NCBI GenBank assembly: GCA_046317855.1
Contig: JBKCVM010000147.1
Location: 3,956-67,955, forward strand
DNA from: Oligoflexia bacterium
Lineage (GTDB): Bacteria > Bdellovibrionota > UBA1018
Length of the DNA stretch: 64,000 bases
Direction: 5' to 3'
This document shows positions 4,197-24,530 of this stretch, one piece after another. The notes beneath the pieces were generated by a model. The model ran no database searches. It saw only the letters and a program-made list of their open reading frames with translations, and was not told the origin of the DNA. The position numbers were made by a program, and so were the translations under genes. Within the stretch, counting starts at the first letter, position 1, and every line of letters begins with the position of its first letter.

Positions 4197-4286
4197 GGAG
4201 AGGTGGCAGAGTGGTCGAATGCGCCGGTTTTGAAAACCGGAGTGGGGGCAACCTCACCGGGGGTTCGAATCCCTCCCTCTCCGCCA
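4197..4286 (+). tRNA. tRNA-Ser (anticodon UGA), 90 nt with long variable arm and encoded CCA
   Basis: Acceptor GGAGAGG pairs with CCTCTCC. Anticodon stem CCGGT/ACCGG with loop TTTGAAA gives anticodon TGA. T-loop TTCGAAT; discriminator G plus CCA. Lies 15 bp downstream of serS. Confidence 0.85.
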
Positions 4287-5855: not shown

Positions 5856-5945
5856 GGAGAGATGGCCGAGTGGTCGAAGGCACACCCTTGCTAAGGGTGC
5901 AGGGGAGAAATCCCCTCGAGAGTTCGAATCTCTCTCTCTCCGCCA
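5856..5945 (+). tRNA. tRNA-Ser (anticodon GCU), 90 nt with long variable arm and encoded CCA
   Basis: Acceptor GGAGAGA/TCTCTCC; anticodon stem CACCC/GGGTG with loop TTGCTAA gives anticodon GCT; T-loop TTCGAAT; discriminator G plus CCA. Confidence 0.85.
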
Positions 5946-8020: not shown

Positions 8021-9271
8021 TTACTTCGAGGCAGATTTCTTTGGGCCGTCAATGGCAACCGACAAGGTCATGTCTGAAAGCACATTGGTGACCGAGCGAG
8101 CTCGACCCAAGATCCAGTCGACCGAAAGCAGCAAAGGGAGGTTTTCGATTGGGAGGCCAACTGCTGTAAGCACGAGTGAAAGTGAAATGAAGCCAGCGTC
8201 TGGAACTCCGGCCACGCCCATTCCGGTCAGCATGCAAAGCACGGCCGCGGATAGCTGCTGTGAAAGGGTGAGATCCATTCCCATTGCCTGGGCCACTGTT
8301 AAAAAAGCCATTCCCTCATAGAGCAGAATTCCGTCGTTATTGAGGTTCGTACCCACGCACGCGCCCAGAGCTGAAGCTTGTCTCGAGACACCAAGGCGAT
8401 CGAGCGCTCGAAGCGTAAAAGGCAGAGTCGCAAGGCTTGAGTTGGTGCCGATGGACTGCACGACCGGAGTCCGGGCTTCACTCCAAAACTGTAAAAGGCT
8501 ACGCTTACAAATCAGCCGAATCCAGCCTTGGTAGGTGATCAAAATGTGGAGCGTGAGTCCCAAGAGGGCAACTCCAAGGTACGGAAAAAGACCTGACAGC
8601 GGACCGTAGCCAAAGCGAGCCACTGCTGAACTCACTGCGCCAAAAACGGCAAATGGGATGGCTCGCGTGATAAAGAAAAGAATTCGCTCCGAAAGCCGCT
8701 GCCCCAGCGCCAGGGTGTTCGAAAAGCGGGTGAGTGCATCTTCTTCTTCTTTTGGATGAGCCTGGCGGGCCTGGTGCTTGCGCTCACCCCGGATGGCTAA
8801 GCCCAACAGCAGGGCTAAGAGAATGACTGGGATCACTGCATTATCCACAAATGGCTTTAGGGTGCTATCCGGGATCCAGCTGCCTAAGTTTTTCATCCAG
8901 TCCAACTTAAGATCGTTTGCAGTGGGAGTGGTCGCAGAAATCGCCGACATCAGATCACCCGAAAGCCCTGTCCTCCAGAGCTCGCGCAGGGCGTCGCCGG
9001 GTCTCAGCCAGTGTGAGAGGAGAATTCCGATGGTGAGCGCTAGGGTTGCGTTGATCGCAGCGATCCCCACCATACGAAGCCCACTCTTGAGCCTAACCTC
9101 AGTGGAGTGAACAGCGTTGACCACGGCAAAAAAAAGAAGCGGCACAGCCACGGCCTTGATGAGTTGAACCACCCATTTGGAAACTTCAGAAAGGAGGGGG
9201 GCGACCGGTCCGGCAAATGGACCTGCCACGAGTCCCAGTAAAAGCCCAATGATGAGTGGAAGGGTTCCCAT
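8021..9271 (-). CDS. Dicarboxylate/amino acid:cation symporter (DAACS/GltP family)
   Basis: 416 aa polytopic membrane protein with conserved symporter segments (GxxxNxDG region; GVPDAGFISLSLVL hairpin-loop-like motif). Confidence 0.8.
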   Translation of the reverse strand: MGTLPLIIGLLLGLVAGPFAGPVAPLLSEVSKWVVQLIKAVAVPLLFFAVVNAVHSTEVRLKSGLRMVGIAAINATLALTIGILLSHWLRPGDALRELWRTGLSGDLMSAISATTPTANDLKLDWMKNLGSWIPDSTLKPFVDNAVIPVILLALLLGLAIRGERKHQARQAHPKEEEDALTRFSNTLALGQRLSERILFFITRAIPFAVFGAVSSAVARFGYGPLSGLFPYLGVALLGLTLHILITYQGWIRLICKRSLLQFWSEARTPVVQSIGTNSSLATLPFTLRALDRLGVSRQASALGACVGTNLNNDGILLYEGMAFLTVAQAMGMDLTLSQQLSAAVLCMLTGMGVAGVPDAGFISLSLVLTAVGLPIENLPLLLSVDWILGRARSVTNVLSDMTLSVAIDGPKKSASK

Positions 9272-10905
9272 TAGGCTCGCCGGTCCAAGTACTCATTGTA
9301 AGTGCCTTCGTAAACGCGGAGCTCGCCCTTACCGAGTTCGAAGACTTTGTTAGTCACTTGGCGCAAAAAGTGGCGGTCATGACTTACGAGGAGCACAGTT
9401 CCCTCAAAGCCTTTGAGGGCTTCGAGCAGCATCTCGCGCGAGCGAATGTCGAGATGGTTGGTGGGCTCATCCAAAATTAAAAGATTGTTGGGTCGCGCCA
9501 GGAGAGTGGCTAGAACGACGCGGCTTTTTTCTCCGCCGGAGAGGACTGCAACTTTCTTGTAAACGTCATCACCGCTGAATAAAAATGCGCCCAAAAGATT
9601 TCTGACATAGCCAATGGTGGCTTCAGGAATGCGGTCGTGGATTTCGTCAAAAATCGTCTTGTTGGGATTCAGGACGTCGAGGGCATGTTGACTGAAATAC
9701 CCAATGTTGATGCCGGCTCCCACTGACAGGTCGCCTGCCGTGGGCTCGGCTTGACCCGCTACGAGTTTGAGGAAGGTGGATTTTCCGGCGCCGTTGACTC
9801 CCACCACTGCGACACGGTCCAGGCGTTTGACGAGTCCGGTGGCGCCCGCAAACACAGTGTGGTCCGTTCCGTTTTCTTTTTTCCAAATCTTCTGAAGCTC
9901 TTTGAATCGGACAACGTCGTTTCCTCCCCGTGGTGGAACAGGAAATTCAAACGACACGGACCGCTCCTCAGTCGGAATCTCAACGCGGTCGATCTTCTCA
10001 AGCTTTTTGATACGCGACTGAACTTGGGCGGCGTGCGACGCACGGGCTGCAAAGCGAGCGATGAACTCTTCTTCTTTTGCCAACATGTCTTGCTGCTTTT
10101 TGTGCTGAGCAAGCAGCTGTTCACGGCGGATTTCACGCTCGCGCTCGTAAAAGTCATAATTTCCCGAGTAGCTGGTGACTGTCTGATTGGCGACCTCGAC
10201 AACTCGCGAGACGATGCGGTTCATGAACTCACGGTCATGGCTTGTCATGACGAGTGCGCCCTTGAAGTTGCGGAGCCACTCTTCCAGCCAAAGGATGGAT
10301 TCTAAGTCCAGATGGTTAGTGGGCTCGTCCATCAGCAGTACATCAGGCTGGAGTACGAGCATCTTGGCGAGTTCGATCCGCATTTTCCAGCCACCGCTGA
10401 AGCTCTCGACACGGGCAGAATGGTCATCCGGCCCGATACCAAGCCCCGTGAGGACTTCACGCGCGCGGGATTCGAGCGTGTAGCCGCCGCGGCTCTCAAA
10501 TTCGAGCTGCAGTTCGCCCATGCGCTCGATGACGGTATTCATGCGTTCCATCGATGCTTCGTCATCCATTTTGGAAGAGAGCTCTGTGAGCTCGTCTTCG
10601 AGCGCTTTGAGGCGGCTAGCCAGCTCTGAAACCTTGCCCGCTCCGGCCATGACTTCTTCAAGGGCCGTGCGGCCCTTCATTTCACCAACCTCTTGTGAAA
10701 AATACCCGATCACCCACTTGTCCGGGCGGGTCACCGTGCCAGAGTCAATGCCCTGCTCGCCCATGATGATTCGAAAAATGGAAGTCTTGCCGGCGCCATT
10801 GGGGCCCACGAGGCCGATCTTTTCTCCGGGTTTGATCTGCAAGCTTGCGCCCTTGTAGAGGACCTTCGAGCCGTACTGCTTATGGATGTCGGATAGGGCG
10901 ATCAC
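9271..10905 (-). CDS. ABC-F family ATPase (two tandem ABC domains, no transmembrane domain)
   Basis: Two Walker A motifs (GPNGAGKTS, GVNGAGKST), two ABC signature motifs (LSGGEKSRV, FSGGWKMRIELA), and an inter-domain linker. Confidence 0.85.
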   Translation of the reverse strand: MIALSDIHKQYGSKVLYKGASLQIKPGEKIGLVGPNGAGKTSIFRIIMGEQGIDSGTVTRPDKWVIGYFSQEVGEMKGRTALEEVMAGAGKVSELASRLKALEDELTELSSKMDDEASMERMNTVIERMGELQLEFESRGGYTLESRAREVLTGLGIGPDDHSARVESFSGGWKMRIELAKMLVLQPDVLLMDEPTNHLDLESILWLEEWLRNFKGALVMTSHDREFMNRIVSRVVEVANQTVTSYSGNYDFYEREREIRREQLLAQHKKQQDMLAKEEEFIARFAARASHAAQVQSRIKKLEKIDRVEIPTEERSVSFEFPVPPRGGNDVVRFKELQKIWKKENGTDHTVFAGATGLVKRLDRVAVVGVNGAGKSTFLKLVAGQAEPTAGDLSVGAGINIGYFSQHALDVLNPNKTIFDEIHDRIPEATIGYVRNLLGAFLFSGDDVYKKVAVLSGGEKSRVVLATLLARPNNLLILDEPTNHLDIRSREMLLEALKGFEGTVLLVSHDRHFLRQVTNKVFELGKGELRVYEGTYNEYLDRRA

Positions 10906-10926
10906 GCCCCGGGATCTACCCCAGAA

Positions 10927-11460
10927 TCAGGGGTGCGCAAAGGTGGATTCGCCCCGCACTGCGGCCCAGGCGGCAAGCACGGCACCCGCCAGCCAGAGGG
11001 CGCTAAAAACAGCCGAAGCCGAGTGCAAGTGTCCGTTCTGCAAGCCTGCCCACATCAAAAGCGCCCACGAAAGGGCCATGATTGGCGTGAAGATCCAAAA
11101 CCCCATTCGCACCGAGACCCTCCGCTCGTCACGCGACAAGAACGTGCGCGCCGCAAGCCCGGTAAGCAGGCTGAAGGCCACCCCGCAGCCCAGGCCGCAC
11201 ACGGCATCGCCATAGGATGCCAAAAAGGCGAGCGGATCAAACTCAAGGCCCAGCGGATGAAAGCCGAACTGCGGGCAGACCAGTAGCGACAGAGCCGCGG
11301 CTACTGAGTGAATGCCGAGCACCTTGAAAAGAAGCAAAAGGTAACTGGGCTCAAGCTCCTGCCTCACGAGGGTCTGCAGTTCATCTCGAATGATGGGTGA
11401 GGGCTGGAGCTCCGGTGATTGAACAATCGAGTCCCAGGAGTCATCGTGCACGGGCTTCAT
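10927..11460 (-). CDS. Putative membrane-bound anti-sigma factor (177 aa, several TM helices)
   Basis: Overlaps the upstream ECF sigma gene by 4 bp (translationally coupled). Hydrophobic TM segments and no ZAS motif. Assignment is by position only. Confidence 0.4.
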   Translation of the reverse strand: MKPVHDDSWDSIVQSPELQPSPIIRDELQTLVRQELEPSYLLLLFKVLGIHSVAAALSLLVCPQFGFHPLGLEFDPLAFLASYGDAVCGLGCGVAFSLLTGLAARTFLSRDERRVSVRMGFWIFTPIMALSWALLMWAGLQNGHLHSASAVFSALWLAGAVLAAWAAVRGESTFAHP

Positions 11461-12029
11461 CGAACGTTCCCTCCCGAAAGCGAGCGGAGCTTTTTTACTG
11501 CGCGGCTCACGCGCTGGCGTGCTGAGGCGGACGAGATGCCCAGGCGCGCGGCAATGGCTTCGAAGGAAAACTCACGCAGGTACCTGAGCTCAAGCACTTC
11601 ACGATGTGGGGGCTCCAGCCGGTCGAGCAGGGGCTGGGCCAGCACGGGGTCTTGTCCGGTACCTGGCGGGTTCTCGGCTTGCGGCTCCGAAAGGGTCTCG
11701 AGCACCGCTTCGGGAGCCTCATGGCCGGGCCGGGCCGGGTTCTTGAATTCACGCCGGAGCGCGTCAATGAGCTGGGTGCGGATGAGCGAAAAAAACCACG
11801 GCCCGAAGGGTTGGCTGGGATGGTACTGGTGGCGGGCCCGGTGCAGCTTTAAAAAAACGGCCTGTAAAATCTCTTCGGCTCGAGCACGGTCACCAATCCG
11901 AGTGACGAGGTACCCCAGCACCTGCCCAGAGTGGCGGGCGTAGAGTGTATTAAAGGCATGGGCGTCGCCGGATTGGTAAAGCTTCATGAGGGACTCATCG
12001 TTTGGTTCCGTTTTTGCCTTCTCCGTCAT
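11457..12029 (-). CDS. ECF-family RNA polymerase sigma factor (sigma-70 regions 2 and 4)
   Basis: DESLMKLYQSGDAHAFNTLYARH aligns with the ECF region 2.1/2.2 pattern (compare RpoE LVERVQKGDQKAFNLLVVRY). C-terminal region 4 HTH (FEAIAARLGISSASARQRVSRA). ATG at 12029 is chosen; the ORF-track TTG at 12047 is an extension. Confidence 0.8.
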   Translation of the reverse strand: MTEKAKTEPNDESLMKLYQSGDAHAFNTLYARHSGQVLGYLVTRIGDRARAEEILQAVFLKLHRARHQYHPSQPFGPWFFSLIRTQLIDALRREFKNPARPGHEAPEAVLETLSEPQAENPPGTGQDPVLAQPLLDRLEPPHREVLELRYLREFSFEAIAARLGISSASARQRVSRAVKKLRSLSGGNVR

Positions 12030-12036
12030 GAATGAA

Positions 12037-12090
12037 TACGCTCTCAAAAAATAATTTGTGACCAGTCACAAGGCATCCTGGCCCTTCGTA
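12037..12090. promoter_or_regulatory. Palindromic back-to-back ECF-type promoters: GTCACA-N16-CGTA on both strands sharing a TGTGAC-CA-GTCACA core
   Basis: Plus strand: GTCACA at 12065-12070, a 16-nt spacer, then CGTA at 12087-12090, upstream of the Cys-rich ORF. Minus strand: GTCACA (complement of 12057-12062), a 16-nt spacer, then CGTA (complement of 12037-12040), 7 nt before the sigma ATG. This resembles the TGTCACA-N16-CGTC class of ECF promoters. Confidence 0.4.
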
Positions 12091-12130
12091 CCTTTCAATG
12101 ACAGGCCATCACTAAAAGGAGATTTTGACC

Positions 12131-12349
12131 ATGAATTCATTCAAGAAATCAATTTACGGCGCCCTATTTGCCCTCTCGGCTGCCGCCATTTCGACCCCAC
12201 CGGCCCTGGCTGCCGGCAAGGAGTGTGCATGTGATTCGAAGTGCATGGAGAGCTGTGCCAAGGGAGACACCAAGAGCTGTTCGTGCAAGACCTGCGATTG
12301 CTCCAAGGACAAGGGCTGCAGTCACGATAAGTGCAATCACAAGCGCTGA
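12131..12349 (+). CDS. Secreted Cys-rich mini-protein (72 aa; signal peptide plus about 45 aa with 12 Cys in CxC/CxxC arrays), metallothionein-like
   Basis: RBS AAAGGAG lies 10 nt upstream of the ATG. Signal peptide ...PPALAAG, then KECACDSKCMESCAKGDTKSCSCKTCDCSKDKGCSHDKCNHKR. Confidence 0.55.
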   Translation: MNSFKKSIYGALFALSAAAISTPPALAAGKECACDSKCMESCAKGDTKSCSCKTCDCSKDKGCSHDKCNHKR

Positions 12350-12415
12350 GCCGGTTGACTCGAGTACGAAATATGCGACACCCTCCTGAGCGGGCGACAG
12401 CCAGGGGGGTGTTTC

Positions 12416-12739
12416 GTGAAGAGTTCAGTGCTTGGGAGTATTTTCGCTTTAGGTGCTCTGCTTTCTGTCCCGGCTTTTTGTGAGGAGTCGGCGGCAGGTG
12501 TCAATCTCAGGTTCAAGGCCGTGGATGTCTGCACGATGTGGGGCAGCTTTCAGGACCGCGACGGCAGGCCCTTTCAGGGCTGCACTCTTTACCCGCGTCG
12601 CATGGAAATCGTCGACTCCTTCAGCCTGCAACAGGAACTGACGGCGCTCGAGCGCCGAATTGAGAAGCTCGAGGCCCTGATCCAGAGGATCGAGGAGCTC
12701 GAAAGTTTGGCTCTTCTCAAGTCCAAGTCCTTCCCCTAA
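12416..12739 (+). CDS. Secreted hypothetical protein with C-terminal coiled-coil (107 aa)
   Basis: GTG start, signal peptide, C-terminal LTALERRIEKLEALIQRIEELE heptads. Confidence 0.35.
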   Translation: MKSSVLGSIFALGALLSVPAFCEESAAGVNLRFKAVDVCTMWGSFQDRDGRPFQGCTLYPRRMEIVDSFSLQQELTALERRIEKLEALIQRIEELESLALLKSKSFP

Positions 12740-12750
12740 AGTGCCGCGTC

Positions 12751-13506
12751 ATGAGTGCGCAGCCCGGTAGTTCGTCAGGTCCTTCCCTTAAGCCCCACAT
12801 CCGCCTAGCGGCCGATCCCCGCTTCAAGCGAGCGGTTGTCTGTGGCGCTCCGGAGCGAGCCGCGCTGATTGCAAGCCAGCTCGAAAATCCGCAGGAGCTG
12901 GCCAAGAACCGTGAGTATCATTCGTACATCGGAAAGCACAAAGGCGTCGAAGTGATGGCCATCTCCCATGGAGTGGGCGCTGCCGGCGCCACGATCTGCT
13001 TTCAGGAGTTGATCGATGTGGGTGTGCAGTCGATCATCCGAGTAGGGACGGCAGGGGGTCTGCAGGACGAAGCGCAGATCGGCGATGTGGCGCTTGCCGT
13101 TGCAGCGGTCCGGCAGGAGGGTGTGACCCCGCTCATGGTGCCGATGGGTTTTCCGGCCGTGGCCGACTCGGCACTGACCGCCGGTCTTGCAGGCGCCCTG
13201 CTCGAAAAAGGCCGCAAGTTCCATCGCGGCGTCGTGCTCACGAGCGATGTGTTTTACCCGGGAATTTTGGACACCGACCTCAGGCTCTACCAAAAGGCCG
13301 GTTGCGTTGCCGTGGAGATGGAGTGCTCGGCGCTTTTTGTTACGGCACTGCTCAGGCGCGTGCGCGCGGCCGGCGTGCTAGCGCTCGATGGTAATCCGCT
13401 TAAGTGGGCTGAAGGAAACTATAATCCTACCGCAGGATCGCTCGACCAGGCGCTTCGCGCCGCAATCGCGGCCGCGCTCGACGCCATCGTGCTGCCGGTT
13501 GAGTGA
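12751..13506 (+). CDS. Nucleoside phosphorylase, PNP/UDP family 1 (purine nucleoside or uridine phosphorylase-like)
   Basis: SHGVGAAGATICFQELIDVGVQSIIRVGTAGGL and VEMECSALF are family-1 nucleoside phosphorylase motifs. Confidence 0.7.
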   Translation: MSAQPGSSSGPSLKPHIRLAADPRFKRAVVCGAPERAALIASQLENPQELAKNREYHSYIGKHKGVEVMAISHGVGAAGATICFQELIDVGVQSIIRVGTAGGLQDEAQIGDVALAVAAVRQEGVTPLMVPMGFPAVADSALTAGLAGALLEKGRKFHRGVVLTSDVFYPGILDTDLRLYQKAGCVAVEMECSALFVTALLRRVRAAGVLALDGNPLKWAEGNYNPTAGSLDQALRAAIAAALDAIVLPVE

Positions 13507-14282: not shown

Positions 14283-15551
14283 ATGGTTCGTGGGGTGTTC
14301 AGTGCGCGGCGTTGGGACCGCAGCCGTGGCCAGAGCCTGGTCGGGGTATTGAGCGCGATGGCGGGATCGCTCGTGCTCTTTGCTGTCTCTGCACAGCTCA
14401 TGATTCAGATGAATCGTATCAAGTCAGACGATGAGCTGGAGAGCTCCTTTCAGCAGATGACCCAGCTCGTGGGCCTGAGCTTGGCAAATCCGGGCTCCTG
14501 CGGTGAGTTCTTTGCCAATCAGCAGATCACCTACCAGGCGGGGGCTGGCCAAGGAGGGGCTGGATGGCAACATGTTGCAGATCCTGCAAGGCCCCTGGTC
14601 TTGGGTGTATTGGCGCCTCCCACCAGTACCCCTCAGCGGTTTGGGCCTTGGGCCGTTCAGAGTTTGAGTCTGCAGATCGAAGACTGCAAGGTGTGGGATG
14701 CCTCCACCGGTTCTCACGTTTCCTGCATCGGTGCGCAGGCAGGTCAGCCGCTCTCTCAACCCACCGAGTTGGTTGGAACTCTGTCTGTCACCGTCAACTC
14801 AACCCGGCCCTCGACCGGCGTGGCAGTGGTTCGGACGACAGAAAAGTTTCCGTTTTTAGTTCGTACTCCGACTGGTCCCAGCCCTCTGGCTCCCGGAGTT
14901 TCATCGTATGTTTTGCCAGCACAAGGTGCCTGCGGGCTCCAAGGGCCATCCGGGGGACAGCCGCCAGCAAATCTGCGCCAACTGCTCTGTAATTCGCTCT
15001 GCATTTCTCCTTCGGCCATGGTTTCAAGAACGGGTTGTTGGGATCCGATCACCGAGCAGTGTGACTTATCCTATCAGACTTGCGATGCGCTTAGGGTTTC
15101 GCGCGCGGGTGTTAATCGGTGTGAGAAAACAAACTTCCGAAATGAATTTGTTCGTGGCGGTTACATTGGGGCTTCGCAAAATCCTTGCCCTGCAGACGAG
15201 GCGGCCGTTGGATTTAGGCTCAAGTATCCGTCGCTGCACTCTTCTGCAGACTCTCAAATGATCTGCCGTCCCTACGGTCCGGCTCCTACGAACCCTCCTG
15301 AGTCCTGCCCCAGTTGCGCAGTGAGGGTTGAGCGTGCGCCTCCGCCAGCACCAAGCACTCGGGCGGCACAGTGCCTCAATTATTGTGTGGGATTGAGCCC
15401 ACCCTCGGGCCAGTTGACGGCTTGGCTGCATACTGGGGCCAATGCTCAGCCAGTCAGTGGTGGGGGAGTCTCGGCGTTCTGTTCTTGCGGGACTCCTAAG
15501 GCAGGGTTTGAGTTCTGTAGACAACCCAGAACAGGGTGTACCGGACTATGA
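14283..15551 (+). CDS. Large Cys-rich pilin-like protein 1 (prepilin-type N-terminus lacking Glu5, GspK/PilX-like)
   Basis: Basic leader ...RWDRSRG, then hydrophobic QSLVGVLSAMAGSLVLFAVSA. The C-terminal 250 aa carries about 20 Cys and is Gly/Pro/Ser-rich. Confidence 0.5.
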   Translation: MVRGVFSARRWDRSRGQSLVGVLSAMAGSLVLFAVSAQLMIQMNRIKSDDELESSFQQMTQLVGLSLANPGSCGEFFANQQITYQAGAGQGGAGWQHVADPARPLVLGVLAPPTSTPQRFGPWAVQSLSLQIEDCKVWDASTGSHVSCIGAQAGQPLSQPTELVGTLSVTVNSTRPSTGVAVVRTTEKFPFLVRTPTGPSPLAPGVSSYVLPAQGACGLQGPSGGQPPANLRQLLCNSLCISPSAMVSRTGCWDPITEQCDLSYQTCDALRVSRAGVNRCEKTNFRNEFVRGGYIGASQNPCPADEAAVGFRLKYPSLHSSADSQMICRPYGPAPTNPPESCPSCAVRVERAPPPAPSTRAAQCLNYCVGLSPPSGQLTAWLHTGANAQPVSGGGVSAFCSCGTPKAGFEFCRQPRTGCTGL

Positions 15552-16717
15552 GCACCCTTTTGCAAACAATGGTGGTGGCACTCATGGTGCAAGGGACGAT
15601 GCTTGGAGTCATGAGTAACCGGCTCTCGCAAAAAAATGCGCATATGAACCAAATGGTGATGGCAGATCGAGATGCGTTTCAGGGCCAAATCCAAAAGGCT
15701 CTTGCTGCGCCCGAGACGTGTTGGCAGATGCTGCAAAAGGTTGATTTTTCGACTACCGGCACGGCTGCAGGGCTGGTGCTGATGGTTCCAGGAGACTCTG
15801 AGAGCTCAAGTCCGTGGGTCCGGCCAGATATGTCTTGGAATAGCCTACTCATCCAAGAGATCTCGGTAAACACGCAGGACTGCGATTCAAACACCGATCC
15901 ACTTTGCGGTACCTCAGCCAATTACACAAAGAAAGCGACCTTAGTATGGGAAGGTCAGGCCCGCGCTGGGAGCGCCAGAAAAATTGGCGGCACGATCGGC
16001 CCCATTTATGCCGATTACGATAACAAGACCTGTGCGTTGATGCTGCAAGGCACAAGTACGGGTTCGGCCTCTGGCGTAGATTGCCAGAGTTTTGGGGGAG
16101 ACTGTGGCGGAAGCAGAACTCTGCAGCTCACGCTGCGAAATTCTGGCTTTAGTTCCTATCCATTTGCTTCGATTCCGCTAGAAGAGCTCTCGGCTCTGTC
16201 GGGATGGGAGATGTCAACCGAGCTTCGAGCTGCCACAGTGGGCGGATGTCCAGTGGGCTATGCAGTGTCTCAGGTTAACAATGAATCTTGGGCAGTAACT
16301 GGAGCGGCCAATTTTAATTGCGTGCCGCTTGTCCCAAATCTTGGAACACCTAACAACGGCTGCGCGCGGTTAAACTACCAAACTTGCTATTATCAGGGTC
16401 CCTCTCACTTTTACGGACTCTGCCCGGATGGGAGTACCACTCTTAGCTATTACGCTATTTTTACGGGTAACGTCCTTCAAGGGCAGGAGTTTCGTTGCGG
16501 CCCGCCGGTCGGTTTGCAGCCTTGTGATAGTGTGACTTACACACAGCCTTCACTTCCTCCTTCAAACCCTGATTTTTCCGACTTCTTTGGGGTCGAACCC
16601 ACGGCGGGTATTCCAGATCCCGGAAATAACCCAGCCAATCCCATCGGCCATCCCGTCAATGGTGCCTCTTGCAGAACGGGATGTATTCACCTTCCAGGGA
16701 CCACCGCATGTCAGTAA
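15536..16717 (+). CDS. Large Cys-rich pilin-like protein 2 (N-terminal hydrophobic helix, non-canonical leader)
   Basis: N-terminal TLLQTMVVALMVQGTMLGVM helix. C-terminal half is Cys/Gly-rich like its neighbours. The start is uncertain (GTG 15536 or ATG 15548). Confidence 0.45.
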   Translation: MYRTMSTLLQTMVVALMVQGTMLGVMSNRLSQKNAHMNQMVMADRDAFQGQIQKALAAPETCWQMLQKVDFSTTGTAAGLVLMVPGDSESSSPWVRPDMSWNSLLIQEISVNTQDCDSNTDPLCGTSANYTKKATLVWEGQARAGSARKIGGTIGPIYADYDNKTCALMLQGTSTGSASGVDCQSFGGDCGGSRTLQLTLRNSGFSSYPFASIPLEELSALSGWEMSTELRAATVGGCPVGYAVSQVNNESWAVTGAANFNCVPLVPNLGTPNNGCARLNYQTCYYQGPSHFYGLCPDGSTTLSYYAIFTGNVLQGQEFRCGPPVGLQPCDSVTYTQPSLPPSNPDFSDFFGVEPTAGIPDPGNNPANPIGHPVNGASCRTGCIHLPGTTACQ

Positions 16718-17877
16718 CTCCGATCAAACTTAGAGCGGGAATGGGACTTGTGGAGGTCATGGTCGCTGCGTCTGTGATTGCAGCTTCGGTGCTTGGGGGG
16801 TTGGGAGCGGCTGAGTATTATGCCCGTTCGTCTGTCAGCCAAGCCCAAGATCAAGCGCTCTTGCGCCTTTTTAGAGGGATTGAATTGATTTTGAGTAGCC
16901 CCTCAACGTGCGATGCCAATCTCAAGGGGCAGGATGTAGGATCTTCGGGGCGATTTTCACTCAGTGAGTTGAGTGTGTCGGGTTCTGTGGCCGGAAGTGT
17001 GGCAAGCCCCTTTGTGCGCGTCGTGACTCATCAGCAGGGCAGTCAGCCGGCAAACGCCTTTCCACTGGGCGCCTCTGGATCAAGAGCCATCTGGGTCACG
17101 GGTCTTGAGTTTAATCGGGTTGGGCAAGTCGCTACGATTCAGCGTTATGAATTTAGAATCAGTGTGCAGATGCCCAGTGGTGCTGGAATGGTTCGAACTC
17201 TCAATCCGGCAACCGCCACGAGGACCCTTCAAGTTTATCTGGAGGTCAACTCTAACAACCGAGTGAGTCGCTGCGTGACTCCCAGTGCGAGCGGTGCTGC
17301 AGCTCCGCCCACCACGGCTCAGTCGGCCTGTGAGTCTTTGGGGGGTCAATGGGTGCGGGATCCTTCTCCTTCTGCCCTGGGCGAGTGGTGCATTCTTTCT
17401 AGGGTGGTCTGCCATGGGTGGAATCTCAGATACGATCCGGTCTCTCGTCACTGTAATATGGACGACGTCTACAAGGCCGGAGGCTTGGCGATGATCGCAA
17501 CCGGTCCGTGTCCAGAGGGTCAATCTCTTCGGAGTTTAGCGCCGGATGGGACCCCCCTTTGCGACTCACCTCGAAACCCTCAGCCGCCAGTGGTGGGAAA
17601 AGACGCACTCGGTTTAGAGCCCACGGTGACTGCAAACTGCGGTGATTGCTGGATGGATAGCGCCGTAGATTGCTACGCCCACAATCCGGCGATCCAACCC
17701 CCGGCTGAGCCATATGAGAGGCGGATGCGGTTCATGGTTTTCAAGCGAGGTCAGTTTCACAGCTCTACTTGCGCCCTGGGTCCTCCGCCCGGACTGAATA
17801 AGTGTGTTTCGTTTGAGCCAGGCACTGATGCTTGGGATGTGCCTTTTAAAGGTCGGCCCTGCGCCCCATCTCCGTAG
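16708..17877 (+). CDS. Large Cys-rich type IV pilin / pseudopilin-like protein 3 (canonical prepilin cleavage/methylation motif)
   Basis: MSVTPIKLRAG|MGLVEVMVAASVIAASVL: G at -1, E at +5, hydrophobic helix. About 18 Cys in the C-terminal domain. The ORF-track start at 16669 may be an extension. Confidence 0.55.
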   Translation: MSVTPIKLRAGMGLVEVMVAASVIAASVLGGLGAAEYYARSSVSQAQDQALLRLFRGIELILSSPSTCDANLKGQDVGSSGRFSLSELSVSGSVAGSVASPFVRVVTHQQGSQPANAFPLGASGSRAIWVTGLEFNRVGQVATIQRYEFRISVQMPSGAGMVRTLNPATATRTLQVYLEVNSNNRVSRCVTPSASGAAAPPTTAQSACESLGGQWVRDPSPSALGEWCILSRVVCHGWNLRYDPVSRHCNMDDVYKAGGLAMIATGPCPEGQSLRSLAPDGTPLCDSPRNPQPPVVGKDALGLEPTVTANCGDCWMDSAVDCYAHNPAIQPPAEPYERRMRFMVFKRGQFHSSTCALGPPPGLNKCVSFEPGTDAWDVPFKGRPCAPSP

Positions 17878-17942: not shown

Positions 17943-18887
17943 TTAGATCTTGATGACCTCAATCCCCTTCTGCCGCTCCCTTGGGAGCTCTGCCGGTAGC
18001 GCAGCCTGTACCTGAACTGCCAGGGCTTCAAGAATGGGCTGCTTGTACTGGGTGCGCCGGTACACCAGGCTCACCTCGCGGCTCGGGACTGGTCGCGTAA
18101 AGGGTTTGAGCAGTTCGCGCCGGTGGCGCGAGAGCGAGCGCGTCGCGAGTAGCGGTAGAAGCGTGTAGCCGTATCCCTGCTCGACGAGATGGATCACCGT
18201 CTCGAGGCTTCCGCTTTCAAAGCGTACGTTCGAAAAAATACCGGGTTTTCCTCGAAGCGAGCAAATCCGCACGATTTGATTTCTGAGGCAGTGCCCCTCC
18301 GAGAGAAGCCAGAGATCGCGCCCGTCGAGTTTGTCTTCGTTGATGGTTTCTAACTTTGCCATTGGATGGCCCGCGCTTACAAAAAGACTGAAGGGCTCAT
18401 AGTAAAGCGGACGCTCCACCAGGCTCTCGACCTCAAGCGGGGTGGCCAAAATTCCCGCATCGATGCGATCCTGCTCGAGCGCCGCGATGATGTTTTCTGT
18501 CGTCATCTCTTCGATCAGTAGCTTGACCTCGGGGTAGCGCGTCGCAAAGTCACCTAAGAAAAGCGGCAACAGGTACGGCGCAATGGTCGGAATCAGCGCC
18601 AGCCTGAAATCTCCCGTGGGTTCGTTTTTGCGATTGCGGCAAAGGTGGTCGAGTTTTCCAACTTCACGCAACACCGACTTGGCCTGCTCGATCACCGCAA
18701 GTCCTTGTTGCGTTGGAAGAATAGGTTGTTTGCTGCGGTCAAAAAAAGTGAGTCCGTACTCTTCTTCGAGTTTGTGCAGCTGCATGCTGAGCGTCGGCTG
18801 AGAGACGTGGCAGGCCTTGGCCGCCTTGCCAAAATGCCGGTGCCGGTCAACCGCAATCAAGTATTCGAGCTGCGTGAGGGTAGCCAT
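17943..18887 (-). CDS. oxyR: LysR-family peroxide-sensing regulator OxyR
   Basis: N-terminus MATLTQLEYLIAVDRHRHFGKAAKACHVSQPTLSMQLHKLEEEYG is close to E. coli OxyR. Conserved redox Cys region (GHCLRNQ) is present. Divergent from ahpC. Confidence 0.85.
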   Translation of the reverse strand: MATLTQLEYLIAVDRHRHFGKAAKACHVSQPTLSMQLHKLEEEYGLTFFDRSKQPILPTQQGLAVIEQAKSVLREVGKLDHLCRNRKNEPTGDFRLALIPTIAPYLLPLFLGDFATRYPEVKLLIEEMTTENIIAALEQDRIDAGILATPLEVESLVERPLYYEPFSLFVSAGHPMAKLETINEDKLDGRDLWLLSEGHCLRNQIVRICSLRGKPGIFSNVRFESGSLETVIHLVEQGYGYTLLPLLATRSLSRHRRELLKPFTRPVPSREVSLVYRRTQYKQPILEALAVQVQAALPAELPRERQKGIEVIKI

Positions 18888-18891
18888 AACG

Positions 18892-18928
18892 ATAGTTTAT
18901 ATCTATCACACGATCAAAACAATCGATT
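18892..18928. promoter_or_regulatory. OxyR-box-like operator in the oxyR-ahpC divergent region
   Basis: ATAG-N7-CTAT (perfect half) followed by the degenerate second half TCAA-N7-GATT with the same 7-nt spacing (consensus ATAG-N7-CTAT-N7-ATAG-N7-CTAT). Confidence 0.4.
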
Positions 18929-18979
18929 TTAGCTTTTGGCGGCCTTGAGGCAGAGTCGAACCATAAGGAGAATTCAAAA

Positions 18980-19546
18980 ATGGCAACTCTGATCAATAGC
19001 AAAATCCCAGACTTTAAGGCCGAAGCGTACCACAACAACGCCTTCAAGACCGTGACTCAGAACGATCTGCGCGGAAAATGGTCGGTCCTCTTTTTCTATC
19101 CCGCCGACTTCACCTTCGTGTGTCCCACGGAGCTGGGCGACATGGCCGACAAGTATGATGCCTTCCAGAAGATGGGCGTCGAAGTCTACTCGGTGAGCAC
19201 CGACACGCACTTCACCCACAAGGCCTGGCATGACACTTCTGAGACGATCAAGAAGATCCGCTACCCGATGCTGGCTGACCCCACGGGCCACCTGACCCGT
19301 GCTTTCGGCGTGCACATCGAAGAGGCCGGCCTGTGCTACCGCGGCACCTTCGTTGTGGATCCCGAAGGCAAGATCAAGATCGCTGAAATCCATGACAACG
19401 GAATTGGCCGCAACGCCGATGAGCTGCTCCGCAAGGTGCAGGCTGCGCAGTTCGTGGCATCGCATCCGGGCGAAGTTTGCCCCGCTAAGTGGACTCCAGG
19501 GGCAAAGACCCTGAAGCCCGGTCTCGACCTGGTCGGCAAGATCTGA
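18980..19546 (+). CDS. ahpC: Alkyl hydroperoxide reductase C (typical 2-Cys peroxiredoxin)
   Basis: FTFVCPTEL peroxidatic Cys motif and resolving Cys EVCPAKW near the C-terminus; RBS AAGGAGA. Confidence 0.9.
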   Translation: MATLINSKIPDFKAEAYHNNAFKTVTQNDLRGKWSVLFFYPADFTFVCPTELGDMADKYDAFQKMGVEVYSVSTDTHFTHKAWHDTSETIKKIRYPMLADPTGHLTRAFGVHIEEAGLCYRGTFVVDPEGKIKIAEIHDNGIGRNADELLRKVQAAQFVASHPGEVCPAKWTPGAKTLKPGLDLVGKI

Positions 19547-19592
19547 GGAATCTTACGCTGAGGCCCGGCGCCTCGGCGGAGATGTTTTCGTC

Positions 19593-19620
19593 GGGGGAAG
19601 GGGGCGTTCCCTCTTCCCCC
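19593..19620 (+). terminator. Stem-loop in the ahpC-ahpF intergenic region (possible partial terminator/attenuator)
   Basis: GGGGGAAGGGGG-cgtt-CCCTCTTCCCCC (12-bp stem, one mismatch); a T-tract follows only after 16 nt. Confidence 0.35.
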
Positions 19621-19655
19621 GACTTCTTGGCCCCGATTTTTTACGGAGGTGCACC

Positions 19656-21284
19656 GTGAGTGACGCAGGCGGCTTGGATCTCGAAATGCTGGAGCAGCTC
19701 AAGGGCGTGTTTGCGCGCCTTGAAAACCCCGTCACGCTTCGAATTGAAAAGGGTGGGGACGAAAATCCCCAAAGCGCAGAGCTTGAGCAAATGCTCAAGG
19801 CCGTCGCTTCCGCTTCTCCCAATGTAAAGGTCGAGCACGGACCCCGCGTTTCTCCTGGCACCGCTCCCGCATTCGAAATCTTGCGCGGCACTCCCGGTGT
19901 GCTGCGCACCGGCATTCGGTTTCGTGCGATTCCGGGCGGGCACGAGTTCAGCTCGCTTGTGCTTGCCATTTTGCATGCCGACGGCAAGGGCAAGCTTCCG
20001 GACGAAGCCGTCACCCAGCGCATTCGCGCGCTTCGCGGGCCGATCCGGCTTCGCACCTACATGTCGCTTTCGTGCGAAAACTGCCCCGAAGTGGTGCAGG
20101 CCCTGAACCTCATGGCAGCCCTGCACCCGGACTTTGAGCACGAAACCATCGATGGCGCGCTTGCGCAGCAGGAAGTCACGGCACTCGCAATCCAGGGCGT
20201 GCCTGCAGTGGTTGCGCCGGGAGCGTTCGAAAGCGAGTGGAACCTTCTGCACTCGGGCAAGATCGCCCTGATCGACCTGCTCGCAAAGCTCGAGGCCCGT
20301 TTTGGAAAAAACGAGGCGGCGGTGACCACCCCAAAAGATCTCGGCCGCTTTGATGTCGTCGTGGTGGGCGGGGGTCCGGCGGGAGCCTCGGCTGCCATCT
20401 ATTCGGTGCGAAAGGGCCTGAGCACGGTCGTGCTTGCCGAACGGTTTGGTGGACAACTGCAAGACACCAAGGGCATCGAGAACATGATTTCGAAATCGTA
20501 CACCGAGGGCGTGCGCCTTTCGGCCGAACTTGCCGAGCACCTGGGCAAGTATCCGGTACGACTTCTTGAGCATAGGCGCGTGAATCGCGTGGGCCCACGT
20601 GACGGCGATGGGTATCGGCGCGTGGATCTGGAGAGCGGCGAGACGCTCGAGGCGCGAACGCTGATCGTGGCCACGGGCGCCAAGTGGCGGGAGCTCGGCG
20701 TGCCTGGAGAGAAAGAACACATCGGGCAGGGGGTTGCGTTTTGCGCGCACTGCGACGGGCCATTCTACAAGCAAAAGCGAGTGGTCGTCGTGGGTGGCGG
20801 AAATTCAGGTGTCGAGGCGGCGATCGATCTCTCTGCCATTGCAACCCATGTGACGCTGCTGGAGTTTAACACCGAACTCAAGGCCGACGGCGTGCTCGTT
20901 GAAAAGCTCAAGACCCTCGGCAATGTGGTGGTCCATACCGGCGCCCGCACCACGCGTGTGCTGGGTGAAGGTGGAAAGGTGGTTGGCCTTGAGTACGAGG
21001 ATCGCGAAAGCGGCCAAGTGAAGCGGCTCGATGTGGATGGAGTGTTCGTCCAGATCGGGCTTCTTCCGAACTCGCAGTTCGTCAAAGGCATCGTTGAAAC
21101 CACGCCCTACGGCGAAATCGTGGTCGACTCCAAGGGCCGCACCAACGCTCCGGGCATTTACGCTGCGGGCGATGTGACCACCGTGCCCTTTAAGCAAATC
21201 GTCATTGCGATGGGCGAGGGCGCCAAGGTGGCGCTCGCCGCATTTGAAGATCGGATGCGCGAAGCCCCTACGCCGCCAGTTTGA
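19656..21284 (+). CDS. ahpF: Alkyl hydroperoxide reductase subunit F
   Basis: N-terminal thioredoxin-like double domain with CENCPE, FAD/NAD(P) binding GGGPAG, redox-active CAHCDG. GTG start preceded by GGAGG. Confidence 0.9.
   Translation: MSDAGGLDLEMLEQLKGVFARLENPVTLRIEKGGDENPQSAELEQMLKAVASASPNVKVEHGPRVSPGTAPAFEILRGTPGVLRTGIRFRAIPGGHEFSSLVLAILHADGKGKLPDEAVTQRIRALRGPIRLRTYMSLSCENCPEVVQALNLMAALHPDFEHETIDGALAQQEVTALAIQGVPAVVAPGAFESEWNLLHSGKIALIDLLAKLEARFGKNEAAVTTPKDLGRFDVVVVGGGPAGASAAIYSVRKGLSTVVLAERFGGQLQDTKGIENMISKSYTEGVRLSAELAEHLGKYPVRLLEHRRVNRVGPRDGDGYRRVDLESGETLEARTLIVATGAKWRELGVPGEKEHIGQGVAFCAHCDGPFYKQKRVVVVGGGNSGVEAAIDLSAIATHVTLLEFNTELKADGVLVEKLKTLGNVVVHTGARTTRVLGEGGKVVGLEYEDRESGQVKRLDVDGVFVQIGLLPNSQFVKGIVETTPYGEIVVDSKGRTNAPGIYAAGDVTTVPFKQIVIAMGEGAKVALAAFEDRMREAPTPPV

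Positions 21285-24452: not shown

Positions 24453-24530
<78 letters not shown>

What the first reader, a model, noticed from the sequence alone, without database searches (positions are those of the whole stretch)
12131..12349. Secreted metallothionein-like mini-protein (12 Cys in 45 residues) as the apparent target of the ECF sigma/anti-sigma pair
Mature peptide: KECACDSKCMESCAKGDTKSCSCKTCDCSKDKGCSHDKCNHKR. It has CxC/CxxC arrays, His and many Lys. Exported metallothionein-like peptides are rare. Positioned opposite an ECF sigma and membrane anti-sigma, it looks like a periplasmic metal-stress (Cu/Zn/Cd) or redox-buffering module. A disulfide-knotted secreted peptide (toxin or signal) is an alternative. 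A second small secreted coiled-coil protein (12416-12739) follows.
Basis: partly seen in the sequence, partly recalled or inferred. Interest (0 to 1): 0.55.

Follow-up and report, generated by a model that had tools for sequence, protein, structure and literature searches.

The report
Exported metallothionein-like peptide under ECF sigma
A small exported protein, one-quarter cysteine and resembling a metallothionein, forms a conserved three-gene unit with its own stress sigma factor and a new type of membrane anti-sigma factor in predatory-bacteria relatives (Bdellovibrionota); it probably mops up toxic metals in the periplasm, but that has not been tested.

Summary
The ORF at 12131-12349(+) is real. 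It encodes 72 aa: a Sec-type signal peptide plus a 45-aa mature part with 10 Cys, not 12. It is not an orphan. An exhaustive HMMER search found 55 cluster representatives, all 61-139 aa, sharing CxCx3Cx3Cx2Gx4CxCx2CxCx4-5CxHGKC and a variable His/Lys-rich tail. No Pfam or NCBIfam model covers the family. Every genome hit that could be placed is Bdellovibrionota.

In 16 of 18 distinct loci the gene sits next to homologues of the window's ECF sigma (11457-12029) and of a 4-TM protein (10927-11460). That protein has invariant Cys near the periplasmic face and also matches no known family. In all 14 module loci scanned (two more were not), the peptide gene and the sigma gene are each preceded by GTCACAA-N14-15-CGTA. 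In the window the two -35 boxes form the palindrome TTGTGACCAGTCACAA. Their spacing varies from 2 to 24 bp between genomes, which indicates two promoters rather than one operator.

The composition is metallothionein-like: 27% Cys, 20% Lys, no aromatics. Some members have single Cys losses or Cys-to-His changes, and the tails are His-rich. There is no Tat motif. This favours a periplasmic metal scavenger, but metal binding is untested. The downstream 107-aa gene is not part of the module.

The parts
12131..12349 (+). Gene for the 72-aa Cys-rich exported peptide. Signal peptide 12131-12211 (residues 1-27). Mature 45 aa 12212-12346. Ten-Cys core C32-C68 = 12224-12334.
   Evidence: Sequence and RBS. 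ORF list. Identical protein annotated in an Oligoflexia MAG. Family of 55 representatives. Cys count. Signal-peptide heuristics.
12065..12090 (+). Predicted ECF-type promoter of the peptide gene: -35 GTCACAA (12065-12071), 15-nt spacer, -10 CGTA (12087-12090).
   Evidence: The motif is found upstream of the peptide gene in 14/14 module loci scanned. No sigma70-like promoter in 10800-13000.
12037..12062 (-). Predicted autoregulatory ECF-type promoter of the sigma/anti-sigma operon: -35 GTCACAA (12062-12056), 15-nt spacer, -10 CGTA (12040-12037). The -10 ends 7 nt before the sigma ATG, so the mRNA is probably leaderless or nearly so.
   Evidence: The same motif lies upstream of the sigma gene in 14/14 module loci scanned. 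Coordinates read.
12056..12071 (.). 16-bp palindrome TTGTGACCAGTCACAA, made of the two back-to-back -35 boxes separated by 2 bp.
   Evidence: In other genomes the two half-sites are 2-24 bp apart, while each keeps its own 14-15-nt distance to a CGTA.
11457..12029 (-). ECF (group IV) sigma factor, 190 aa from ATG 12029.
   Evidence: Pfam Sigma70_r2, Sigma70_r4 and Sigma70_ECF. NCBIfam sigma70-ECF TIGR02937, 91 bits against a cut-off of 42.9. Nearest solved structure is M. tuberculosis SigL, only E 5.5e-11.
10927..11460 (-). Putative anti-sigma factor, 177 aa. Its start overlaps the sigma stop by 4 nt. It has an N-terminal cytoplasmic segment of about 38 aa and four TM helices. C61-PQFG and C87-x3-C91-G are invariant and lie towards the periplasmic side. 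The TM3-TM4 loop contains H-x-H.
   Evidence: No Pfam or NCBIfam family. Homologues at 54-59% identity. 13-locus alignment. AF2 model with four long helices, pLDDT 66. No PDB fold match. The anti-sigma role is inferred from position and topology.
12377..12413 (+). Strong hairpin just after the peptide stop codon (12-bp G+C-rich stem, only three U after it). It could be a weak terminator or an mRNA stabiliser. Its 3' arm contains the G-run that would serve as RBS for the next ORF.
   Evidence: RNA fold of 12345-12425: -33.3 kcal/mol, z = -2.9. The terminator scan did not call it.
12416..12739 (+). 107-aa ORF (GTG start) with a signal-like N-terminus and a C-terminal coiled coil. It is adjacent but lineage-specific and does not belong to the conserved module.
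   Evidence: Only weak coiled-coil Pfam hits. No homologue in the 15 other related loci clustered.

Best explanation
A self-contained three-gene envelope-stress module. SHOWN: the gene encodes a small pre-protein with a Sec-type signal peptide. Its mature part is a conserved ten-Cys, Lys-rich, aromatic-free core with a His/Lys-rich tail. In Bdellovibrionota it is almost always next to one particular ECF sigma and a 4-TM membrane protein. The peptide gene and the sigma gene each carry the same GTCACAA-N14-15-CGTA motif. INFERRED: the 4-TM protein is the anti-sigma factor and holds the sigma at the membrane through its N-terminal cytoplasmic segment. Its three invariant Cys (CPQFG, Cx3CG), placed by the topology inference near the periplasmic end of TM1 and TM2, together with a His-containing periplasmic loop, sense a thiol-reactive agent. 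Soft or borderline metal ions (Cu(I), Zn, Cd) are the most likely agents. Sensing releases the sigma, which then transcribes its own operon and, divergently, the peptide gene. The peptide is exported unfolded by Sec. In the periplasm it wraps around metal ions as thiolate(/His) clusters, like a metallothionein. This lowers free periplasmic metal and so feeds back negatively on the signal.
For: Family and fixed pattern: 55 representatives, six Cys invariant and four at 91-99%, G45 74/78, H65 60/78. Export: 77/77 have a signal-peptide-like N-terminus, 0 Tat motifs, 0 lipoboxes. No Tat motif argues against pre-assembled cofactors and for metal acquisition after export. Metallothionein-like chemistry: the core is 27% Cys and 19.6% Lys, with 1 aromatic residue in 3798 and about 1% Leu/Ile/Val, so there is no hydrophobic core. 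Individually dispensable ligands: 12 of 77 scored members, plus P0012 (which lacks the first Cys and was not scored), have fewer than ten Cys (11 with nine, one with eight), through single losses at different positions. C57 is replaced by His in two representatives. His-rich appendages: tails are 15% His, 32/77 carry HH or HxH, and P0048 has an (HEG)3 N-terminal extension. Four of 55 members weakly hit Pfam Metallothio_Euk, best E 8.6e-5. AF2 finds no confident fold: pLDDT 54.7 and one short helix. Regulatory link: sigma and anti-sigma homologues are adjacent in 13 of 15 loci and in three further contigs representing two more genomes, and they are the only conserved neighbours. There are 28 motif instances, one before the peptide gene and one before the sigma gene in each of 14 loci. 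The total is 34 matches in 180 kb against 4.1 expected. The window has no sigma70-like promoter in the region. Sensor: invariant Cys and a His-rich loop in the 4-TM protein. Precedent: sigmaF/NrsF, a polytopic anti-sigma with periplasmic Cys, controls small Sec-exported periplasmic scavenger peptides (PMC3511200, PMC11626156, PMC4436054).
Against: No experiment exists for any member. No metal-resistance gene is conserved next to the module; a CDF transporter, an ETR1_N kinase and DoxX genes each occur only in one or two related loci. The periplasm is oxidising, so ten Cys exported by Sec would be expected to be oxidised by DsbA unless metal binding or a reducing pathway prevents it. An even count of ten Cys with rigid spacing also fits five disulfides. 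There is no detectable homology to any characterised metallothionein: hhalign probability is 5-7% and the window peptide has no Pfam hit. The AF2 alignment had only 13 sequences, so low confidence is weak evidence. The promoter motif was defined by pattern search, not by TSS mapping. The anti-sigma role is positional inference.
Confidence: 0.55

Rival explanations
1. Sacrificial periplasmic thiol sink or redox buffer. The peptide is induced by oxidants or electrophiles (HOCl, peroxide, copper-catalysed disulfide stress). Its ten thiols are consumed in place of essential envelope proteins, as MrpX methionines are in Azospira.
For: The module logic matches SigF/NrsF-MrpX (PMC4436054). The anti-sigma has invariant Cys that could act as a redox switch. 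Lys next to Cys lowers thiol pKa (composition). A LysR-AhpC-AhpF-like cluster lies about 5.6 kb downstream in the window and in a relative.
Against: No reductase or regenerating enzyme is conserved next to the module, unlike MrpX/YedY. His-rich tails, the (HEG)3 extension and the Cys-to-His replacement point to metal coordination rather than pure redox chemistry. Thiols exported into a DsbA-containing periplasm would be oxidised without any stress.
Confidence: 0.15
2. A disulfide-stabilised mini-protein with five disulfides and a non-metal function, such as a protease inhibitor, a signal, or a toxin or effector of a predatory lineage.
For: Ten Cys with rigid spacing and export to an oxidising compartment. 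The C-terminal half has Cys spacing resembling pacifastin-type inhibitors, but the hits are not significant, with PDB E-values of 1.1-4.1. Bdellovibrionota secrete many hydrolases (general knowledge).
Against: The PDB matches are not significant. There are single, unpaired Cys losses in 12 of 77 scored members and a Cys-to-His change. Aromatic and hydrophobic residues, which such folds normally keep, are essentially absent. AF2 predicts no beta-sheet or confident fold. A dedicated stress sigma/anti-sigma pair is an odd regulator for a toxin.
Confidence: 0.12
3. The peptide is mainly a periplasmic co-sensor or feedback ligand of the anti-sigma factor. It would exchange metal or disulfides with the anti-sigma Cys, as CpxP or CnrX do in their systems. 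This is not exclusive of the scavenger role.
For: Strict three-gene co-conservation with no other partner. Conserved Cys on both partners, on the periplasmic side.
Against: It carries the sigma-dependent promoter, as an output gene does. Two genomes have orphan copies with no sigma nearby (L109, L113). No interaction evidence is available.
Confidence: 0.1
4. A RiPP precursor like the bufferins, whose Cys are converted by enzymes encoded elsewhere in the genome.
For: Bufferin precursors are also Sec-exported Cys-containing peptides, under an ECF sigma with a polytopic anti-sigma (PMC11626156).
Against: No MNIO/DUF692, DUF2063 or other modifying enzyme gene was found at the module loci: none among the neighbours that were annotated, and no neighbour family other than sigma and anti-sigma recurs. 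No DUF2282 or BUF_6/12Cys signature. Bufferin clusters are co-located with their enzymes.
Confidence: 0.03

Closest known systems
SigF/NrsF (ECF16) with bufferin operons in Caulobacter (PMC3511200, PMC11626156)
   Same: An ECF sigma with a polytopic membrane anti-sigma whose conserved periplasm-facing Cys are needed for control. The response is to metals. The output is a small Sec-exported Cys-containing periplasmic peptide that complexes copper. The regulon is small and the sigma gene carries the same promoter motif.
   Different: NrsF is DUF1109 with six TM helices. The protein here has four and no DUF1109 match. Bufferins need adjacent MNIO and DUF2063 enzymes that convert Cys to thiooxazoles; no such genes occur here. 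The peptide has no DUF2282 or BUF_6/12Cys signature. It has ten Cys rather than 4, 6 or 12.
SigF/NrsF with MrpX in Azospira suillum (PMC4436054)
   Same: The sigma/anti-sigma pair drives a strongly residue-biased small periplasmic peptide that acts as a stoichiometric scavenger.
   Different: MrpX is Met-rich, scavenges hypochlorite and is recycled by YedY. Here the peptide is Cys/Lys/His-rich and no recycling enzyme is linked.
Bacterial metallothioneins SmtA/BmtA and MymT (reviewed in PMC7558416)
   Same: Small size, high Cys content plus His ligands, no stable apo-fold expected, and a metal-buffering role.
   Different: Those have no export signal (PMC7558416 places metallothioneins in the cytosol) and are controlled by metal-sensing repressors (SmtB for SmtA; my knowledge), not an ECF sigma. 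There is no sequence homology: hhalign probability 7%, 11 columns. SmtA contains aromatic residues and a zinc-finger-like fold.
Csp1 copper storage protein (PMC7558416)
   Same: A Cys-rich protein that stores Cu(I) outside the cytoplasm.
   Different: Csp1 is a pre-folded four-helix bundle exported by Tat. This family has no Tat motif (0/77), is 45 aa long and has no predicted bundle.
Eukaryotic metallothioneins (Pfam Metallothio_Euk; human MT2A)
   Same: The CxC / CKCKxC(D/K)C motif style, Lys-rich and aromatic-free composition. Four of 55 members give weak Pfam hits.
   Different: Similarity is at motif level only: 10 aligned columns, probability 5%. The window peptide gives no hit. This family is exported and has a His-rich tail.

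Membership tests
Metallothionein (operational definition: small, Cys-rich, aromatic-free, metal-thiolate clusters) | Low molecular weight | tested here: met
   45-aa mature peptide. Family precursors are 61-139 aa, all but one of them 99 aa or less.
Metallothionein (operational definition) | High Cys content in CxC/CxxC-type arrays | tested here: met
   10 Cys. The core is 27% Cys. Three CxC, one CxxC and two CxxxC.
Metallothionein (operational definition) | Absence of aromatic residues and of a hydrophobic core | tested here: met
   1 aromatic residue in 3798 mature-region residues; Leu/Ile/Val about 1%.
Metallothionein (operational definition) | Binds several metal ions in thiolate clusters | not testable with these tools
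   Indirect only: Cys-to-His substitution, single Cys losses, His-rich tails.
Known metallothionein sequence families (Pfam Metallothio_*, SmtA/BmtA) | Significant match to a family model or member | tested here: not met
   The window peptide has no Pfam or NCBIfam hit. Only 4/55 relatives weakly hit Metallothio_Euk. hhalign against MT2A and SmtA gives probability 5-7%.
ECF (group IV) sigma factor with cognate anti-sigma | Sigma2 and sigma4 domains only, about 190 aa | tested here: met
   Sigma70_r2, Sigma70_r4 and TIGR02937 above cut-off.
ECF (group IV) sigma factor with cognate anti-sigma | Co-transcribed membrane anti-sigma immediately downstream | tested here: inconclusive
   A 4-TM protein overlaps the sigma stop and is conserved in 13/13 loci where the region is present. 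No recognisable anti-sigma domain; binding not testable.
ECF (group IV) sigma factor with cognate anti-sigma | Autoregulation: same promoter motif at the sigma gene and at its target | tested here: met
   GTCACAA-N14-15-CGTA precedes both genes in 14/14 module loci scanned. This is a motif only; no TSS data.
NrsF-type anti-sigma (DUF1109) | Match to PF06532/DUF1109 | tested here: not met
   No hit even at E<=10 for six family members.
NrsF-type anti-sigma (DUF1109) | Six transmembrane helices | tested here: not met
   Four long hydrophobic helices in the alignment and in the AF2 model.
NrsF-type anti-sigma (DUF1109) | Conserved periplasm-facing Cys | tested here: met
   C61, C87 and C91 are invariant across the 13 related loci plus the window. 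They sit near the periplasmic end of TM1 and TM2 by the positive-inside rule. This feature is analogous, not homologous.
Bufferin RiPP precursors | DUF2282 or BUF_6/12Cys signature | tested here: not met
   No such Pfam or NCBIfam hit for the window peptide or for 55 relatives.
Bufferin RiPP precursors | Adjacent MNIO (DUF692) and DUF2063 genes | tested here: not met
   Sigma and anti-sigma are the only conserved neighbours. Annotated neighbours show no DUF692 or DUF2063.
Pacifastin/knottin-type disulfide-rich inhibitors | Significant sequence or fold match; beta-sheet core | tested here: not met
   PDB profile hits at E = 1.1-4.1 only. The AF2 model has no strands. The model is low confidence, so the fold test is weak.
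Csp1-type exported copper storage protein | Tat signal and four-helix bundle | tested here: not met
   0/77 twin-arginine motifs. One 8-residue helix predicted.

The most novel reading that the evidence does not exclude
This would be the first genuinely periplasmic, Sec-exported, unmodified metallothionein family. It would assemble metal-thiolate clusters in the oxidising periplasm. It is hard-wired to a previously undescribed class of 4-TM, Cys-based anti-sigma sensor (CPQFG / Cx3CG) through paired back-to-back ECF promoters. Possibly the peptide also resets the sensor by taking metal from, or exchanging thiols with, the anti-sigma Cys.
Probability: 0.35. Interest if true: 0.75.

Novelty: new variant of a known kind. 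Interest (0 to 1): 0.6.

Why it matters
Characterised bacterial metallothioneins are cytoplasmic. Known periplasmic metal buffers are Met/His proteins, the Tat-exported Csp1, or enzymatically modified bufferins. A plain gene-encoded Cys cluster peptide working in the oxidising periplasm would raise a sharp chemical question: how are ten thiols kept available next to DsbA? It would also add a new solution to envelope metal stress. The module defines a new polytopic anti-sigma family with a likely Cys-based sensing site and gives a compact promoter motif (GTCACAA-N15-CGTA). That makes the regulon of one Bdellovibrionota ECF sigma directly testable. These bacteria have sigma factors with 'orphan' downstream genes that were reported as having no homologues (PMC3464611).

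Tried and rejected
- The word-indexed homologue search with the peptide alone returned only itself. The exhaustive search was needed.
I replaced it with a back-translated Cys-pattern scan.
- The Foldseek afdb50 library was not available. Foldseek against PDB found nothing for the anti-sigma model. I did not fold-search the peptide model because its pLDDT is 54.7.
- A palindromic operator for a dimeric regulator is rejected. The two half-sites are 2-24 bp apart in different genomes, while each keeps a fixed distance to its own CGTA.
- A conserved fourth gene or a linked metal-resistance gene is rejected. Clustering of all neighbours and Pfam on 40 neighbouring proteins showed only unrelated or sporadic genes.
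- An extra motif in L080 (3403-3378) and one in the window (59340-59314) lie inside ORFs on the other strand, or far from any start codon, and are treated as chance.
- Supplementary text of the ECF reclassification paper is not held, so the ECF group number could not be assigned.
- Literature searches for exported or periplasmic bacterial metallothioneins and for Bdellovibrio metallothionein found nothing relevant.
- A guess at which ten relatives give the Metallothio_Euk hits was wrong.
- Orthology to B. bacteriovorus HD100 bd0743/bd0745 or bd0881/bd0882 could not be tested because I had no access to those sequences.

Full report
**1. Observation**

The ORF is real. ATG is at 12131 and the stop ends at 12349. 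AAGGAG lies at 12116-12121, 9 nt upstream. The TTG at 12125 listed by the ORF finder is too close to the RBS to be the start.

The product is MNSFKKSIYGALFALSAAAISTPPALA|AGKECACDSKCMESCAKGDTKSCSCKTCDCSKDKGCSHDKCNHKR. The N-terminus has the n/h/c layout of a Sec type I signal peptide with A-L-A at -3/-1. The mature part is 45 aa. It contains 10 Cys, not the 12 reported.

The identical protein is annotated as hypothetical in an Oligoflexia MAG. Near-identical contigs occur in other samples with no change in the gene or in the intergenic region. Upstream on the other strand is a bona fide ECF sigma. Its stop overlaps the start of a 177-aa polytopic membrane protein with no family assignment.

**2. 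It is a family, not an orphan**

The word-indexed search found only the protein itself. Exhaustive phmmer over 1.84 billion representatives found 55 at E<=1e-3, all 61-139 aa.

The alignment shows a signal peptide followed by C-x-C-(D/S/T)-x2-C-x3-C-x2-G-x4-C-x-C-(K)-x-C-(D)-C-x-K-x2-3-C-x-H-G-K-C and then a variable tail. In 78 distinct sequences:
- Six Cys columns are invariant.
- C32 and C55 are present in 77/78, C68 in 72/78 and C57 in 71/78.
- G45 is present in 74/78 and H65 in 60/78.

No Pfam or NCBIfam model covers the family. The only model hit by more than two members is Pfam Metallothio_Euk, by 4 of 55, best E 8.6e-5.

**3. Distribution and context**

I scanned one genome per species with a back-translated Cys pattern and filtered the matches with a family HMM. 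All are labelled Bdellovibrionia, Bdellovibrionales, Bacteriovoracaceae, Oligoflexia or Bdellovibrionota, except two labelled only 'Pseudomonadota'.

Counting the metagenomic relative L003, homologues of the window's sigma and 4-TM protein are adjacent in 13 of 15 loci. Twelve are divergent as in the window. In one (L055) the peptide gene follows the pair on the same strand. Two (L109, L113) are orphan copies. Three more contigs from two further genomes show the same triad.

All-against-all clustering of every neighbouring ORF shows that sigma (14/14) and the 4-TM protein (13/13) are the only conserved neighbours. Pfam annotation of 40 flanking proteins gave unrelated genes. Sporadic exceptions are a CDF transporter (L122), an ETR1_N hybrid kinase (L087) and DoxX_2 genes (L114, and L127). 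The 107-aa ORF after the peptide in the window has no counterpart elsewhere.

**4. Regulation**

The 101-bp intergenic region contains the palindrome TTGTGACCAGTCACAA (12056-12071). Read on either strand it gives GTCACAA, 15 nt, then CGTA (12065-12090 on +; 12062-12037 on -).

The same element occurs once before the peptide gene and once before the sigma gene in each of the 14 module loci scanned, including the co-directional L055. That makes 28 of the 34 matches found in 180 kb, where shuffles give 4.1 (maximum 10).

The distance between the two inverted GTCACAA boxes ranges from 2 to 24 bp among genomes. Each box keeps its own 14-15-nt spacing to CGTA. So these are two independent -35/-10 promoters placed back to back, not an operator for a dimer.

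CGTA is a typical ECF -10 element, as in B. subtilis sigma-W promoters (my knowledge). No sigma70-like promoter is detected in 10800-13000. In the whole 64-kb window only these two sites match well.

The sigma promoter's CGTA ends 7 nt before the ATG at 12029, so that mRNA is probably leaderless. I conclude that the sigma is autoregulated and that the peptide is its direct, and locally its only, target. This rests on comparative motif evidence, not on TSS mapping.

**5. The presumed anti-sigma**

The alignment of 14 homologues and an AF2 model (pLDDT 66) show:
- a cytoplasmic N-terminus of about 38 aa;
- TM1 ending in an invariant C-P-Q-F-G;
- a periplasmic loop;
- TM2 starting with an invariant C-x3-C-G;
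- a positively charged cytoplasmic loop (E..R);
- TM3, then a variable periplasmic loop that is His-rich in several members (HLHAH, HTGHH, GHLH in the window);
- TM4.

It matches no Pfam family, DUF1109/NrsF included, and no PDB fold. Three invariant Cys towards the periplasmic side of the membrane, by topology inference, plus His make a plausible site for a thiophilic metal or a redox switch. The anti-sigma role is inferred from gene order, translational coupling and topology.

**6. What the peptide most likely does**

Evidence favouring a metallothionein-like metal scavenger:
- (a) The core is 27% Cys and 20% Lys. There is 1 aromatic residue in 3798 and about 1% Leu/Ile/Val, so no hydrophobic core is possible.
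- (b) Twelve of 77 scored members have fewer than ten Cys (eleven with nine, one with eight), through single losses at different positions (C57, C68, C55). P0012, which the script did not score, lacks C32. C57 becomes His in two representatives, as expected for ligands but not for disulfide partners.
- (c) A conserved His sits in CxHGKC. Tails are 15% His, with HH or HxH in 32/77. One member carries an (HEG)3 extension.
- (d) There are 0/77 Tat motifs and 77/77 Sec-like signals, so any cofactor must be acquired after export.
- (e) AF2 finds no confident fold: pLDDT 54.7 and a single 8-residue helix. This is weak evidence because the alignment had only 13 sequences.

Evidence against:
- The periplasm is oxidising.
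- An even count of ten Cys with fixed spacing also fits five disulfides.
- There is no linked metal-resistance gene.
- There is no homology to known metallothioneins.

The profile search of PDB gave only insignificant matches. These were pacifastin-type inhibitors at E = 1.1-4.1 and one compositional hit to the TROP2 Cys-rich domain at E = 0.004.

**7. Comparison with known systems**

The closest working analogue is sigmaF/NrsF. There an ECF sigma is held by a polytopic anti-sigma whose periplasmic Cys are essential. It responds to chromate and cadmium (PMC3511200). It drives small Sec-exported periplasmic scavengers: copper-binding bufferins in Caulobacter (PMC11626156) and the Met-rich hypochlorite sink MrpX in Azospira (PMC4436054).

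This module works like that system, but it fails the membership tests. The anti-sigma is not DUF1109 and has four TM helices rather than six. The peptide has no bufferin signature. No MNIO or DUF2063 genes are linked.

Characterised bacterial metallothioneins (SmtA, MymT) are described with the cytosolic copper-handling proteins in the review, which places metallothioneins in the cytosol. The exported Cys-rich copper store Csp1 is a Tat-exported four-helix bundle (PMC7558416). I found no paper describing this family.

Lambert et al. noted that the genes downstream of the B. bacteriovorus HD100 ECF sigmas bd0743 and bd0881 are 'unique to Bdellovibrio' (PMC3464611). Whether either corresponds to this module could not be tested.

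**8. Verdict**

The metal-binding function is the best-supported reading but remains untested.

This is a new protein family and a new anti-sigma family, arranged in a known kind of circuit. Novelty: new variant of a known kind. Interest: 0.6.

Noticed in passing
window 14283-17877 (+): Three consecutive ORFs of about 400 aa with 20, 16 and 14 Cys. The first two have no Pfam hit; the third was not scanned here and has no hit on record. They show no BLASTP similarity to one another. The third (16669-17877) has a prepilin-like N-terminus (RAG|MGLVEVMVA), which suggests type IV pilus or pseudopilin-associated proteins.
   Followed up: partly
window 17943-21284: A LysR-family regulator lies divergent from AhpC (peroxiredoxin) and a 542-aa ORF that is probably AhpF-like. 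A relative keeps the same AhpC and LysR genes a few kb from its module, so an oxidative-stress cluster lies about 5.6 kb from the peptide.
   Followed up: partly
window 12377-12413 and 12416-12739: A strong hairpin (-33 kcal/mol for the folded 81 nt, z = -2.9) follows the peptide stop. Its 3' arm contains the G-run that would be the RBS of the lineage-specific 107-aa secreted coiled-coil ORF (GTG start). Translation of that ORF may therefore depend on read-through or hairpin melting.
   Followed up: partly
window 12027-12040 (-): The -10 CGTA of the sigma promoter ends 7 nt before the sigma ATG, which implies a leaderless or nearly leaderless sigma mRNA. In L003 the corresponding distance is 22 nt.
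   Followed up: no
L127 5224-5995; L114 1230-1538: DoxX_2 family membrane protein genes sit next to the peptide gene in two related Bdellovibrionales genomes. DoxX is also the fourth gene of bufferin operons. This could be coincidence or a thiol-homeostasis link.
   Followed up: no
L122 2659-3519; L087 5534-7768: A cation-diffusion-facilitator gene lies two genes from the peptide in L122. A hybrid histidine kinase with an ethylene-receptor-like (copper-binding) N-terminal domain lies two genes beyond the anti-sigma gene in L087. These are sporadic metal-related neighbours and are not conserved.
   Followed up: partly
L109 7066-7302; L113 5996-6256: Two Bdellovibrionia genomes carry family members with no adjacent sigma/anti-sigma and no GTCACAA-N15-CGTA motif. 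They may be paralogous copies under other control, or the sigma lies elsewhere.
   Followed up: no
protein P0048 (139 aa, metagenomic): This family member has a long N-terminal region before the Cys core that contains AHEGHEGHEGHG, a His-Glu-Gly repeat typical of metal-binding stretches.
   Followed up: no
window 9271-10905 (-): An ABC-F type ATPase (two ABC domains plus ABC_tran_Xtn) starts 21 nt after the anti-sigma stop on the same strand, so it may be co-transcribed in this lineage. In L003 an alpha/beta hydrolase on the other strand separates them, so it is not part of the module.
   Followed up: partly
window 4197-4286, 5856-5945, 24453-24530: tRNA-Ser(TGA), tRNA-Ser(GCT) and tRNA-Pro(CGG). 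No other Rfam family was found in the window.
   Followed up: yes
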